Shown here piece after piece: positions 45,001-60,000 of a DNA stretch of 64,000 nt. The DNA comes from Mobula birostris. Its lineage: Eukaryota. The stretch spans positions 91,871,006 to 91,935,005 of the forward strand of contig NC_092379.1 of assembly GCF_030028105.1 (NCBI RefSeq). Direction: 5' to 3'. The position numbers are program-made. Each line of letters begins with the position of its first letter. The first letter of the stretch is position 1.

Positions 45001-48000
45001 TTTTTCATCCAGAACTTTTAGAAATAGCTGAAAAGATGTTGGAATGAACAGTTAATTTCCACAGTTAAAAACTTAAGTGGATATTCCAAAGAATAAAGAA
45101 AATGTAAAGATGGGGTCTCCACATGATCACATAAGAGGCACTGGTTCTTAAATATAAGAGGTCCTACAACTTTATTTCACATTAAATAACAGAAGCTTAC
45201 AGTTGGTCACACCCTCTTCCCTTGGAGTAAAGGATTCATTTAAACATCATCCCAAAGCAGATTTAACAATTACATATGCTCTCACTTATCTCATGCATCT
45301 TTTCTCTCTGATTTGGCAAATCAAAATTAACTTACACCTCATGCATTATTTTAAAGCTCACAAACAATCCACAGTTTAGAATAAAGCTTACTCCAAAAGA
45401 TTGGACATTTGCCAAAATATCTTAGATTATAATCAAAGCTATCTTAAAGATATTTTAAACTTTAAAGCTTTAAAAGAATGCTGGAAGTTATTGGTCATGC
45501 ACATGGAAACAGTCTTAATATTCCCACATCAATCAAAATTCCAACATCTTGTGAGATTTCTCGTATTCTAATCTAAAACCTGGATTATATGACCTCTTCA
45601 TTTTACAGTCTTGGATAATGCATCTTACTTTAGAACCATCAGCACTTCCAGAACCATTGTTTTTGACAGATCATTACTTACATTTACATCTGTGATATGT
45701 GTGCGTGGTTTTGTATCCTGTGAGTTTCATGGTAGCTACCTCTACTGGAGTTGTCTCCTGATTTTCCTTCACCCTCTTCTGGTCCATCTCCCTAACCCAA
45801 GTTTTGACACGAAGTAAGTATCCTACTGGTATCCCAAAGTTCAAACCTCTCAGTGAGCTGTGTCCACTACTGTCAGCCATTACGTGATATCACATGGAGT
45901 GAACTGAATTGTCTGGACACAGATTTCTGCAGTGGTGTGGCTCTCAGGAGAAAAACACGGTTGCCAATGCTTTGGCCTTTTCTTCAGCATATATGCAGAC
46001 CCCGCCCACTCCACTATGGAAGATGAAGATGCTCTTAGAGCTTCCTCCCCCTATGAGCTGTTTAATTGCCCATCATAATTCATGACTATATGTGACAGGA
46101 CTGCAGAGCTTTGAAATGACCTATTGGCCACGCGGTAGCTTGACTCTGGCTGCAGCATGCTGTTGCAGTTGGTTAGCTCACAATTAGTCCTCTATTGCAA
46201 TTTCACTATGCTAGCACCTCATCATCGTGTGGTGTGTCTGGTGTTGCTCCTGACAAGCACTCCTGTGCCTCATTTCCCATCCTGTGGCTTGATAATAATG
46301 GTAGACTGAAGAATACACTACTGATCACGATGCCTTACGTTTCTGGGGCTGATAATTGTCAACAGCATCTCGTAAGTGCCCAGTTTTGACCTGCCGGGTC
46401 TGATCTAAGATTTCTCATTCGGCAGATTTGTTGTGCCACACAGCTCAGTGGTGTGCGTCTGCACTGTGAAAATAGAACTTCGTCTCCCAAGGATTGTGAC
46501 GTGATCACTTCAACCAGTGCTATAATTGACAGGTAGCTTCGTGAGGACAAGGTCATATAGATTTTCCCCTCATTCTGGTTCACTTACTACCTTCTGCTGA
46601 TCTGGTTGGGCAGCAATTTTTTCAGGTGTTGGCTACCTCAGTCCGTGGTGCTGCCAAGTCACTCTTGGTGATAGATATTGAAGTCCCTCACCCAGTGTAC
46701 ATTCTGTTTACCTCGAGTTAATCCAAAATATAATCATTTTATCTCTAATTGATTTCAAGTGCACTGCTTATAAAAAATAAGTCTGAGGGGTGGAAATGGC
46801 TTTCAGTTAGCCTTGATTGCGCAAAATGAATTGGCAGTATGCTTTCCACCCCAGTGATTTAGAGAGGTGTGACATGCAATAATTTTCTCGTCTGTGATCT
46901 GAATATATTCCTTTAAAGAAACCTATCATACAATCTAATTAACATCGCTGAAGGAACTAATTTAATATTCGTGCTTAGTATCCGCTGTTAGCCTTTTTTT
47001 AAAGTAATGCTATTATCTGTCTATAATTGCATTAGATTCCCAGCTCTAATTCTTCACTTGAAATGTTAAATACATAGCCTATTATCAGTGTTTGTGCTCC
47101 TGAAAAGGATATTTATCTAGCAATCACACACGCAAACAAAAGAGGCACGCTTTCTGGAAGGCAATTCCGGGGATGAACAGGTGCTGTTCAGATGACACAA
47201 AAGAACACAAATGATCTTACTGCAGACAAATTGTAACTACGAAGAAATTGTTCAAAAACTGCGAAAAAGAACCAAGCCTTATATCCACAGCAACATTTTA
47301 GATTGTGAAGTTAAAACATAATTTGCGAAAATGTCCTGTGGAAAACAAGATGTGATTATCATTGGTGCAGGCTTGTCCGGTGAGTTACTTTACTCTTTTC
47401 TCTTTTTCCGATTAATATTTTTCCCTCATTTTTTTTATATAAGTGTTTGAGCTATTTGAATGAAGCCTGCTTTTGGGCAGTGTATATTAATGAATGGTTA
47501 TTTTGAATCTGCAATTATGTTGTAGAATAATATATCAGGATGAAATAGTCCAAATTGTGTCACCTTTTATTTGTATGTAATTGGAATGAATATCATCATG
47601 CGTAAGATAGAAAATCACTTTAATAATAAATTCTATTTGAAATAATCCAAAAATAAGTTAAAGCAAACAAAACTGGTTTCTATGAACTTAAATTTGGTTC
47701 TTTTTTTAGGATGAAGACTCTCTATCTGTGGCAGTTTGATAATGCATTTAACTGCTATCCACTGTTAAAAGCACCTTGTAAAAATATTGTGATATCTGAA
47801 CATGTTATAATTTTAGCTCTTTTAATTATATTTACCTTGTTAGTCATGAAACTAAGAGCAAGGTGTATTGTCAATGAGTGTGCAGTCTTTCAGGCTAATT
47901 TCATCTCCCCACAGGGTAGTCAATTTTCCCTTTTGAAGTATTTTTGTCTGGAAGTAAACAAGTGTATATAAAATGTAGATCTTGCCACAGCAAGGTATAT

Positions 48001-57000: not shown

Positions 57001-60000
57001 CCTACCCTGATTCAACTCTTCCAACATTTTACCAGCATTCAGCTCAGCACAACAGTAATCCTCCCTGTTTGCTTTGCCCAGATTCTTTATTTTTCTTTTC
57101 TCTTAGGTATTAAGGCCAATTACAAATTTTCATCTAATGAAAGGTGTTTTGTTTCTTTTGTCCATTATTAGTATATCAAGAAAGGATATTTACATTGGCA
57201 GTTTTCTATCAAAGTATAGTTGTCAGAATTGGCCACTGTACCATTGAACTAAAAAAGATTCCTGCTGTCAATCATTATCAAGTGAGACATGCTGAAAAAT
57301 GTCCATGCATGAATATCATGCAAGAATTTGCCCTGGCTGTAAATATATACAGTACATGGTTGAACAGTGTGTCGCAATAATTGCCAGGATGTGTACATGA
57401 AAATAGCAATGTAAATTAGCAGAAAGGGTACCAGCACCCAGAGAACTGGGAACCTACAGAAGTCATTGCTGTCAAAGGAATAGACAATAGATTGCAAAGA
57501 AAATTAGTTATTTATTGACACAATTATTTGTCATAGGGTCCAGAGTTCCAGTACGTTGACTTGGGGGGAGCATATGTTGGACCCACTCAAAATCGGATTT
57601 TGCGATTAGCCAAGGAGCTGGGTATAAAGACGTATAAAGTAAACGAAGAAGAGAAACTTATTCACTTTGTACAGGTAAAATGATTCCATTTCTTTTTTAT
57701 TTGAATGTTGTTGTTAAAAGATTGTAGTTCCAGGGAATGAAGCACTCTTTTGCTACCATTATTGCCGACATTGACATTGGTATACCAGTTTTTAGATACT
57801 AGATATAGCAGATAACGGGCATGGCCAGACTATCCTTGTGTTACCTTCAAAATGGAACACCAAGCTGTCTCAAGTGAATCACTTCCTATGAAATAGAATT
57901 ACATTTTTTTAGCTGTCTATCACATTGCAATAGTCTCTAGACCTTCTATGAAGTTTCAAACCTACATTTAAAAGTTATTGAAAATAGACCGAGGGGCCTC
58001 CGAATCAAATTAATTTATGACAGCCAGTCTTTTGAACCTTTCAAGCCTAATTTTATAGAAAGTGAATTTCCACGGAAGAATGTTCCAATGGCCTATTATC
58101 ACTGCAAGGGAAGATTCAATAGCAATATCAGAGTGATATTGTAAATGTTTATTTTAATATTCAGCTCAGAAATCTTTTTAACATTTCTGCCAATGGTAGG
58201 CTGTAGCAGTTGAACTCTCTGGTCTACTCAGTTAACAGAGATTTTATGTTATTGAATTTAACAAGATGTTTTAGTTCATGTCCCTGTTATTCAAATCTCC
58301 CTATTAGAACATAAAGACATAGGAGCAGAATTAGACCATTTGGGCCATCGAGTCTACTCCACCATTCGATCTTGGCTGATTTATTATTCCTCTCAACCCT
58401 ATTCTCCAGTCTTCTCCCTAACCTTTGATGTCTTTAATAATCAAGAGCCTATCAACCTCCACTTTAAATACCCAATGACTTGGCCTCCACTGCCAAGTAT
58501 GGCAATTAATTCTGCAGATTCACCACCCTCTGGCTAAATAAATTGTGCTTCATCTCTGTTGTAAAGGGATGTCCTACTCTGAGTCTGTGCCTAATGGTCC
58601 TTGACTTTCCCTCTATAAGAAGCATCCTCTCCACGTCCACTCTATCTGGGCCTTTCAATGTTTGATAGGTTTCAATGATATCCCCCCTCATTCTTCTAAA
58701 CTCCAGCAAGTGCAGGTCCAGAGCCATCAAACAGTCCTCATATGAAAACTATTTCATTCCTGGAATCATTCTCATGAACCTTCTTGGTCCCTCTCCAATA
58801 CCAGCACATTCTTTAAAAACGCAAATACAAAGAAATCTGCAGATGCTGGAATTTCAAGCAACACACAAAAATTGCTGGTGAACGCAAGAGATTTCTTGCT
58901 ATCTCTTCTTTCAGTCAGTCCTGACGAAGGGTCTCGGCCCAAAACGTCGACTGTACCTCTTCCTATAGATGCTGCACGGCCTGCTGCGTTCACCAGCAAT
59001 TTTTATGTGTGTTGCCAGCACATTCTTCTTAGATTAGGGGCCCAAAACTGTTCACAATTCTCTAAGTGTGGTCTGAGCAATGTCTTATAAGGCTCAGCAT
59101 TACATCTTTGTTTTTAAAGTCTAGTTGTCTTGAAATGAATGCTAACATTGCAATTTGCCTTACTTACTACTGGCTCAACCTGCAAGTTAACCTTTAAGGA
59201 ATCTTACACGTAGACTTTCAAGTCCCTTTGCACCTCAGCTTTCTGAACTTTCTCCCCACTTAAAAAATATAGTCTACATTTTTATCCCTTCTACTGAAGT
59301 GCATTACCATACACTTCCCTATACTCTATTCTAATCTGCCATCAACTTGCCCATTCTCTTAAACTGTCTATTTCCTTCTCCAGATGTCCTGCTTCTTCAA
59401 CACTACCTGCCCCTCCACCTATCTTTGTATTGTGTCCAAATTTGGCCACATAGCTATCAATTCCATCCTCCAATTCATTGATGTATAGCGTGAAAAGAAG
59501 CAGTCCCAAAACTGACCCCTGCAGAACACTACTAGTTACCAGCAGCTAACCAGAAAAGGCCCCCTTTATTTCCACTCTTTGCCTCCTGCCAGTCAGCCAA
59601 CCTTCTATCTATGCTAGTATCTTCTCTGTAATACCATGGGCTCTTATATTGTGGAACAGACTCATGTACGGAGCCTTGTCAAAGACTTTCAGAAAATCGA
59701 AGTAGACAACATCCACTGACTTTTCTTTATCTATGTTATTTCCTCAAAGAATTCCAACACACTTGTCAGGCAAGATTTCCCCTTAAGGAAACAATGTTGA
59801 CTTTGGCCTATTTTGTATGTGTCTCTAAGTACCCCAAAACCTCATCCTTAATAATGGACTCCAACGTTTTTCCAACCACTGAAGTCGGGCTAATTGGCCT
59901 ATTATTCACTGTCTTTTGCATCTTAAAGTGTGCAGTGACATTTGTAATTTTCCTGTCCTCCAAAAACTTTCCATAATCTAGTGATTCTTGTAAGATCATT

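What the first reader, a model, noticed from the sequence alone, without database searches (positions are those of the whole stretch)
47331..57674. A monoamine oxidase gene next to BRCC3/CMC4: candidate second MAO lineage absent from mammals
Seen: three exons (49, 95, 138 nt) encoding an MAO N-terminus start 8.5 kb after the BRCC3 stop on the same strand. Known: human MAOA/MAOB lie at Xp11.3 with NDP, EFHC2 and FUNDC1, while CMC4-BRCC3 lie at Xq28 between FUNDC2 and VBP1 with no MAO. The peptide differs from MAOA/B at normally stable positions (GAGLSG vs [14 protein letters not shown] vs NxxVxYVD). Inference: because FUNDC1/FUNDC2 mark paralogous segments, this could be a whole-genome-duplication paralog of the MAOA/B ancestor, retained here and lost in mammals, possibly with its own substrate profile. 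I recall a divergent MAO clade being reported for non-tetrapod gnathostomes, so it may already be named; I cannot verify that here.
Basis: partly seen in the sequence, partly recalled or inferred. Interest (0 to 1): 0.78.

Follow-up and report, generated by a model that had tools for sequence, protein, structure and literature searches.

The report
Stingray copy of known MAO F gene

Summary
Three exons of 49, 95 and 138 nt (47331-47379, 54733-54827, 57537-57674, + strand) have an ATG and canonical GT/AG splice sites. They encode an MAO N-terminus starting 8,483 nt after the BRCC3 stop, on the same strand. CMC4 lies head-to-head upstream of BRCC3.

The peptides match the 519-aa "amine oxidase [flavin-containing]-like" protein of the stingray Hemitrygon akajei at 16/16, 31/31 and 45/46 residues. 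The window is therefore from a ray or close relative, not human.

In my ML tree of 41 database MAOs, that orthologue sits in a 14-row group split from all MAO A, MAO B and fish MAO A/B rows with 100/100 support. Exon 3 alone places the window on the same side with 100/98 support.

This lineage is published as MAO F (Merello Oyarzun et al., Genome Biol Evol 2025, PMC11833248). The paper describes the same CMC4-BRCC3 5' flank, loss in the tetrapod ancestor, and tarpon enzyme assays.

Exons 4 onward lie outside the window.

The parts
47331..47379 (+). MAO F exon 1 (49 nt). It holds the start codon and most of the GxGxxG FAD/dinucleotide-binding motif.
   Evidence: Sequence read (ATG at 47331, donor gtgagt at 47380). 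Translation. 16 of 16 residues identical to P0005. tblastn of P0005 residues 1-17 maps to 47331-47381 at 100%.
54733..54827 (+). MAO F exon 2 (95 nt). It encodes the end of the Rossmann beta-alpha-beta unit, including [11 protein letters not shown].
   Evidence: Acceptor and donor read. Translation. Pfam Amino_oxidase E = 4.4e-10 and NAD_binding_8 E = 4.7e-07. 31 of 31 residues identical to P0005.
57537..57674 (+). MAO F exon 3 (138 nt). It opens with the F-type signature G-P-x-F.
   Evidence: E = 3.4e-20 to P0005. 45 of 46 residues identical to P0005 and P0004. G1, P2 and F4 fall in residue sets that do not overlap between 14 F rows and 27 non-F rows. The exon-3-only ML tree places it in the F set at 100/98.
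7537..38847 (+). BRCC3 (BRCC36 deubiquitinase) gene, the 5' neighbour on the same strand. Coding pieces were seen at about 7537-7641, 17024-17143, 17705-17800 (HSHPH JAMM motif), 26845-26934, 28406-28465, 28835-28966, 34724-34798 and 38686-38844, with the stop at 38845-38847. Exon edges are approximate (frame or HSP bounds).
   Evidence: Motif and frame scans. tblastn with the sturgeon fused model P0028. Pfam JAB at E = 2.9e-06 and 1.5e-07, and BRCC36_C at E = 1.7e-07 and 6e-14. Two of the six BRCC3 pieces sent to Pfam gave no family.
3862..4808 (-). CMC4 (Cx9C motif-containing protein 4), two coding exons, head-to-head with BRCC3.
   Evidence: Frames carrying CX9C motifs. Pfam CMC4 PF08991 at E = 6.2e-09 for 3862-3981. 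The 21-residue first piece (4746-4808) scores only E = 0.073.

Best explanation
The window holds the 5' end (exons 1-3 of an expected 15) of the monoamine oxidase F gene of a cartilaginous fish. The closest named match is a stingray. The gene sits in its conserved position downstream of CMC4 and BRCC3.

MAO F is the second MAO lineage of jawed vertebrates. It arose by duplication before the split of cartilaginous and bony fishes. It is kept in sharks, rays, chimaeras, ray-finned fishes, coelacanth and lungfish, and was lost in the tetrapod ancestor.

By homology, the product is a mitochondrial outer-membrane flavoenzyme with covalently bound FAD. It oxidatively deaminates monoamines (tyramine, dopamine, serotonin, phenethylamine) to imines, producing hydrogen peroxide.

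Shown here: the three exons, the synteny and the clade membership. Inferred: the rest of the gene, the enzyme activity and the localisation. These come from the full-length stingray orthologue and from published assays on the tarpon enzyme.
For: 1. Exon structure and near-identity to an annotated full-length orthologue. The matches are 16/16, 31/31 and 45/46 residues to H. akajei P0005, 519 aa.
2. Synteny is CMC4(-), BRCC3(+), MAO(+). This is the 5' flank reported for MAO F (PMC11833248 section 6).
3. ML tree of 41 named database proteins, 525 columns. The 14 rows I labelled F form one side of a branch at 100/100. P0005 lies inside a 5-row cartilaginous-fish subgroup at 100/97. The other side holds 27 rows, among them H. 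akajei P0150 and Heterodontus P0162.
4. Both sides of the split contain Hemitrygon, Latimeria, Protopterus, Lepisosteus, Anguilla and Scleropages. The duplication therefore predates crown jawed vertebrates.
5. The window's own exon 3 is placed in the F set at 100/98. It carries the three F-only residues G1, P2 and F4.
6. The orthologue has the hallmarks of a working MAO. SGGCY is present in 41 of 41 rows, and P0005 C398 aligns to human MAO A C406. The gate residues F200 and L327 align to F208 and I335. The alignment to human MAO A covers residues 7-512 at E = 2e-248.
7. Published tarpon MAO F binds FAD, localises to mitochondria, oxidises all six amines tested, and is inactivated by clorgyline but not deprenyl (PMC11833248 abstract and section 8 part 1).
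Against: - Only 94 codons of about 519 are in the window. tblastn of P0005 found nothing for residues 95 onward, and no MAO-like frame was seen in 57675-64000. An intact gene in this genome is therefore inferred, not shown.
- Exon 2 alone cannot separate the lineages. F rows share 22-31 of 31 residues and non-F rows 21-26 of 31. In the exon-2 tree each label needs 2 changes.
- On exon 3, distant ray-finned F rows (31-37 of 46) overlap non-F rows (30-36 of 46). The placement rests on the tree and three signature residues, not on raw identity.
- Exon 3 is below Pfam's cut-off on its own (16.8 against 19.8 bits).
- My tree has no outgroup and is rooted at the midpoint for drawing only. The sister relationship and the lamprey single copy are taken from the paper.
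- I hand-picked the 41 rows from the 120 + 120 listed hits and labelled them beforehand by name, length and motif.
- A second MAO was seen in the relative H. akajei, not in the window's own genome, and its neighbours could not be inspected.
Confidence: 0.93

Rival explanations
1. A canonical MAO A/B gene that moved next to BRCC3 in this lineage (simple translocation), not a separate paralog.
For: Exon 2 and most of exon 3 are highly similar to canonical MAOs. Exon 2 shares up to 26 of 31 residues with non-F rows. PDB human MAO B matches exon 3 at E = 4e-18.
Against: The F versus non-F split has 100/100 support, with cartilaginous and bony fishes on both sides. Exon 3 places on the F side at 100/98. 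H. akajei has a separate canonical-type MAO, P0150, on another contig. The same CMC4-BRCC3 flank is reported for bony-fish MAO F. A sturgeon gene model, P0028, fuses BRCC36_C with an F-type MAO.
Confidence: 0.01
2. A decaying remnant: only the 5' exons survive in this genome and the gene is no longer functional.
For: Exon 4 is not within the 6.3 kb after exon 3, which is filled with retroelement-like frames. Intron 1 (7.35 kb) carries a degenerate LTR retroelement. Nothing in the window shows transcription.
Against: All three exons are open, with an ATG and canonical splice sites. They differ from the intact 519-aa H. akajei protein at 1 of 93 compared residues, as expected under purifying selection. 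Long repeat-filled introns are also seen in the neighbouring BRCC3, whose coding region spans about 31 kb.
Confidence: 0.05
3. A recent, ray-specific duplicate of MAO rather than an ancient lineage.
For: None beyond the GAG variant of the GxGxxG motif, which among F rows is seen only in P0005 and the window.
Against: Among the 14 F rows, 9 are from bony vertebrates: seven ray-finned fishes, coelacanth and lungfish. The branching within the group broadly follows the species tree.
Confidence: 0.01

Closest known systems
MAO F (monoamine oxidase F) of non-tetrapod jawed vertebrates, Merello Oyarzun et al., Genome Biol Evol 2025 (PMC11833248)
   Same: The clade is the same: the orthologue and the window's exon 3 both fall on the F side of the split. 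The 5' synteny with CMC4 and BRCC3 is the same. The taxonomic range fits, since cartilaginous fish are included. In the stingray orthologue the FAD-Cys motif and the Phe at the first gating position are present.
   Different: The second gating residue is Leu in the stingray orthologue. It is Leu or Ile in all 7 cartilaginous and lobe-finned F rows, but Met in 7 of 7 ray-finned F rows, including tarpon, the only MAO F assayed (the paper states Phe/Met for tarpon). Whether rays were in the paper's sample is in its supplementary table, which I could not see.
Fish MAO A/B (the single canonical 'mao' of zebrafish and other non-tetrapods) and tetrapod MAO A and MAO B
   Same: Same fold and chemistry. 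P0005 aligns to human MAO A over residues 7-512 and is 66-72% identical to the canonical rows listed. I recall, but did not check here, that human MAOA and MAOB also have exons 2 and 3 of 95 and 138 nt.
   Different: It lies on the opposite side of a 100/100 branch. The locus differs: next to CMC4-BRCC3 rather than GPR82/NDP. Exon 3 opens G-P-x-F rather than N-x-x-V/T/C.

Membership tests
MAO F | [quoted passage not shown] | tested here: met
   The exon-3-only tree puts win_e3 in the 15-row F set at 100/98. The full-length proxy P0005 lies in the 14-row F group at 100/100. My trees are unrooted. No joined exon model was used.
MAO F | Flanked on the 5' side by CMC4 and BRCC3 | tested here: met
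   CMC4 on the - strand at 3862-4808 and BRCC3 on the + strand at 7537-38847, shown by Pfam and tblastn. Published flank read.
MAO F | 3' flank GABRA3/GABRB4 (bony fish; only partly kept in cartilaginous fish) | not testable with these tools
   The gene runs off the window's end, and no eukaryotic genome collection was available.
MAO F | Occurs in a non-tetrapod jawed vertebrate | tested here: met
   The best named matches to all three exons are batoids, H. akajei and Pristis pectinata. The species itself was not determined.
MAO F | Coexists with a separate MAO A/B gene in the same genome | tested here: inconclusive
   This is seen in the nearest named relative. H. akajei P0005 lies on a contig of 178,401,696 bp and P0150 on one of 197,924,442 bp, and they fall on opposite sides of the split. 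The window's own genome was not searchable.
Flavin-containing amine oxidase / MAO (Pfam PF01593) | N-terminal GxGxxG dinucleotide-binding motif and Amino_oxidase domain match | tested here: met
   G-A-G-L-S plus the split-codon Gly. Exon 2 matches PF01593 at 39.9 bits against a 19.8 cut-off. Exon 3 scores 16.8 bits, below the cut-off.
Flavin-containing amine oxidase / MAO (Pfam PF01593) | SGGCY covalent FAD-attachment cysteine, active-site gate and C-terminal membrane helix | not testable with these tools
   These are encoded by exons outside the window. In orthologue P0005, C398 aligns to human MAO A C406, F200 to F208 and L327 to I335, and the alignment runs to residue 512.

The most novel reading that the evidence does not exclude
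Two small points go beyond the naming paper's main text.

(a) MAO F and MAO A/B may be ohnologs of an early vertebrate genome duplication rather than products of a local duplication. MAO F lies beside CMC4-BRCC3. FUNDC1 and FUNDC2 are reported as strict ohnologs lying in paralogous clusters.

(b) The Phe/Met gate reported for tarpon MAO F may be a ray-finned-fish novelty. Cartilaginous and lobe-finned MAO F keep Leu or Ile there. If so, the stingray enzyme could differ from the only assayed MAO F in inhibitor and substrate behaviour.
Probability: 0.5. Interest if true: 0.3.

Novelty: already known. Interest (0 to 1): 0.15.

Why it matters
It matters little as a discovery. The lineage, its synteny, its loss in tetrapods and a first enzymology were published in January 2025.

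It does have some use. It confirms that the MAO F locus keeps its CMC4-BRCC3 anchor in a ray. It also flags that the biochemically studied tarpon enzyme differs at a gating residue from the cartilaginous-fish form. That bears on any use of sharks or rays in comparative monoamine pharmacology.

Tried and rejected
- **Exon 4 and beyond.** I looked in 57675-64000 by frame listing and by tblastn with P0005, P0036 and P0028. Nothing turned up beyond chance-level hits (E of 0.16 or worse).
- **Whole-frame translations to Pfam.** I sent single stop-free pieces instead (after two coordinate or length slips).
- **Cluster members of P0005 and P0150.** The look-up could not be made because the database was switched off. 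The window's species and other members of those clusters stay unchecked.
- **FUNDC2 upstream of CMC4.** The frames of at least 35 aa in 1-3860 look like retroelement debris. They were read by eye only; just one of them went to Pfam, and it matched only ALKBH8_N. The gene is not evident in the window.
- **LTR-like repeats.** Gapless direct-repeat detection around the intron-1 element found none. A gapped alignment showed them.
- **Tandem repeats and Rfam.** Tandem repeats in 9000-29000: none. Rfam over the whole window: no match at gathering scores.
- **Exon 1 and exon 2 as lineage markers.** Rejected.
- **Literature beyond the naming paper.** A search for 'MAO F' or 'monoamine oxidase F' gave only that paper as relevant among the 15 papers listed. 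Most of the 11,084 matches were author names.
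Full report
**What is in the sequence**

- Exon 1 is 47331-47379 (49 nt). It has an ATG at 47331 and a gtgagt donor.
- Exon 2 is 54733-54827 (95 nt). It has an ag acceptor after a pyrimidine-rich run, and a gtaagt donor.
- Exon 3 is 57537-57674 (138 nt). It has an ag acceptor and a gtaaaa donor.

They translate to 16, 31 and 46 residues. 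The codon split between exons 1 and 2 (G + GT) reads Gly. I kept the exons apart throughout. Where full length was needed I used a database orthologue as a proxy.

**Is it an MAO, and whose?**

Exon 3 alone, searched against longer proteins, gave 434 proteins at E of 0.001 or better among 443 candidates. The best named hits were "amine oxidase [flavin-containing]-like" of Pristis pectinata (P0004) and Hemitrygon akajei (P0005). Both are 519 aa, 98% identical, with E about 3e-20. Other sharks, a chimaera, coelacanth, bichir, gar, sturgeon and lungfish followed.

In the PDB, exon 3 matches human MAO B (E = 4e-18) and MAO A (E = 4e-16). Pfam puts exon 2 in Amino_oxidase above the cut-off; exon 3 alone is below it.

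Against P0005 the window's exons share 16/16, 31/31 and 45/46 residues. I therefore take the window for a ray, close to or within the stingrays. It is not human. The species was not determined, because the cluster look-up could not be made.

**Surroundings**

- *BRCC3.* A JAMM-motif frame at 17705-17806 led to BRCC3 on the + strand. Its first coding exon is at about 7537-7641. Further pieces lie at about 17024-17143, 26845-26934, 28406-28465, 28835-28966 and 34724-34798. The last coding frame ends at 38844, followed by the stop.
- *Pfam support for BRCC3.* Pfam confirms JAB in 2 pieces and BRCC36_C in 2 pieces, out of the 6 BRCC3 pieces sent.
- *CMC4.* It lies head-to-head upstream on the - strand. 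3862-3981 matches PF08991 at E = 6e-09. The short first piece is only E = 0.07.
- *Intergenic stretch.* It shows only retroelement-like frames.
- *After exon 3.* No MAO exon 4 is present in the remaining 6.3 kb.

**Which MAO lineage**

From the two hit lists (120 rows each) I chose 41 named proteins. I left out all unnamed records, the human record, short fragments, the 1047-aa centipede protein P0003, and most of the many teleost, bird and mammal rows.

The ML tree (525 columns, LG+C20+F+G4) gave these results.
- The 14 rows I had labelled F form one side of a branch at 100/100.
- P0005 pairs with Pristis at 100/99, inside a cartilaginous-fish group of 5 rows at 100/97.
- The other side (27 rows, 100/100) holds fish MAO A/B, tetrapod MAO A (one group, 100/99) and MAO B. 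MAO B was not one group, as the published tree also found.
- That side includes a second H. akajei protein, P0150, paired with Heterodontus P0162 at 100/99.
- Six genera sit on both sides of the split: Hemitrygon, Latimeria, Protopterus, Lepisosteus, Anguilla and Scleropages. The duplication is therefore older than crown jawed vertebrates, wherever the root lies on that branch.

My tree has no outgroup. The sister relationship and the single lamprey gene are taken from the literature.

The window's own sequence was placed exon by exon.
- *Exon 3.* On its 46 columns the window joins the F set at 100/98, next to P0005 and P0004.
- *Exon 3 signature.* Three positions have residue sets that do not overlap between F and non-F rows: G against N; P or S against A, E, K, N or Q; and F against C, T or V. 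The window has G, P and F.
- *Exon 2.* It is identical to P0005 but cannot separate the lineages. Its identity ranges overlap, and each label needs two changes in the exon-2 tree.
GLSG is in 12 of 12 F rows that have the motif but also in 2 of 25 non-F rows. GAG is in 1 of 12 F rows and 3 of 25 non-F rows.

**What is known**

[quoted passage not shown] I read the abstract, sections 5, 6, 8 (part 1 of 2) and 12, and searched passages. The paper reports the following.
- It is sister to MAO A + MAO B + MAO A/B.
- It is flanked 5' by CMC4 and BRCC3 and 3' by GABRA3 and GABRB4 in bony fish. The 5' synteny is maintained in cartilaginous fish.
- It was lost in the tetrapod ancestor.
- The MAO A / MAO B duplication occurred in the tetrapod ancestor, and lamprey has a single gene.
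- Recombinant tarpon MAO F binds FAD, localises to mitochondria, and oxidises all six amines tested, with kcat values comparable to the human enzymes.
- It is inactivated by clorgyline but unaffected by deprenyl, and is judged more like human MAO A.

The paper cites Goulty et al. 2023 as an earlier hint of this lineage; I did not read that paper.

The finding is therefore a further instance of a named, published gene lineage. Whether a ray was among the paper's sampled species is in its supplementary table S1, which I could not see.

**How it most likely works**

By homology with P0005, the full protein would be an outer-mitochondrial-membrane flavoenzyme.
- P0005 aligns to human MAO A over residues 7-512 at E = 2e-248.
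- The covalent FAD cysteine is present: C398 aligns to C406, and SGGCY occurs in 41 of 41 rows.
- The gate is MAO A-like. F200 aligns to F208 and L327 to I335.

The three exons in the window encode the start of the FAD-binding Rossmann unit. Enzyme activity and localisation are inferred, not shown, for this gene.

**What remains open**

- *Intactness.* The rest of the gene lies outside the window. An intact gene here is an inference, drawn from the near-identity of the three exons to an intact orthologue.
The naming paper's main text speaks only of "a duplication event" and has no hit for 'genome duplication', 'ohnolog', 'WGD' or 'FUNDC'. Its single 'whole-genome' hit is a reference title.
- *Indirect support for WGD.* Passages of PMC5526904 report FUNDC1 and FUNDC2 as strict ohnologs, with nine gene pairs shared between their regions. 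The title of PMC7537572, seen only in a search listing, places FUNDC2 and CMC4 together at Xq28. FUNDC2 is not evident in the window (read by eye; one frame also went to Pfam).
- *Gating residue.* The second gating residue is Met in 7 of 7 ray-finned MAO F rows, including tarpon. It is Leu or Ile in all 7 cartilaginous, coelacanth and lungfish rows. The tarpon enzymology may therefore not transfer unchanged to rays.

**Verdict**

The novelty is "already known". Interest is low.

Noticed in passing
window 50700-54490, - strand (inside MAO F intron 1): A degenerate LTR retroelement. Two flanking stretches of about 250 nt are 82% alike when aligned with gaps. Between them, broken - strand frames match Pfam RVT_1 and RT_RNaseH domains. 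A frame at 53125-53490 looks by eye like a Cys-His knuckle, but Pfam gave it no family.
   Followed up: partly
window 21408-25487, - strand (inside a BRCC3 intron): A long non-LTR retrotransposon. A 627-aa frame carries endonuclease and reverse-transcriptase domains (RVT_1 E = 2e-32). An upstream frame has weak, below-cut-off GDSL-esterase and OSK matches. It coincides with the strongly negative GC skew and higher G+C of 20-28 kb.
   Followed up: partly
window 58200-63600 and 39658-41339; also 1-3500: Many short retroelement-like frames lie after exon 3, in the BRCC3-MAO spacer and at the window's start. One frame matches only the ALKBH8_N model, which I recall is often hit by LINE tails. No other gene is evident in the 8.5-kb spacer.
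   Followed up: partly
database proteins P0028 (Acipenser sinensis) and P0025 (Polypterus senegalus): Two gene models look fused. P0028 joins a BRCC36 C-terminal part to an F-type MAO, which independently shows BRCC3-MAO F adjacency in a sturgeon. P0025 joins F-type MAO pieces to an inward-rectifier potassium-channel domain (the PF01007 listing), hinting at a KCNJ gene downstream in bichir.
   Followed up: partly
alignment of 41 MAO proteins, column of P0005 residue 327: The second active-site gating residue is Met in 7 of 7 ray-finned MAO F rows. It is Leu in 6 and Ile in 1 of the 7 cartilaginous, coelacanth and lungfish MAO F rows. Most fish MAO A/B rows also have Leu.
   Followed up: partly
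alignment column of P0005 residue 173 versus PMC11833248 section 8: The column that holds Cys in the three mammalian MAO B-side rows is Asn in all 14 MAO F rows, including tarpon, and in the MAO A rows. The paper's text says Gln at the Cys172 position. This may be a wording slip in the paper or a different alignment.
   Followed up: no
window 47331-47379 and P0005: The second glycine of the GxGxxG motif is Ala (GAG) in the window and in H. akajei, but Gly in the other 11 F rows that have the motif. The same change occurs in 3 of 25 canonical rows, so it seems tolerated.
   Followed up: yes
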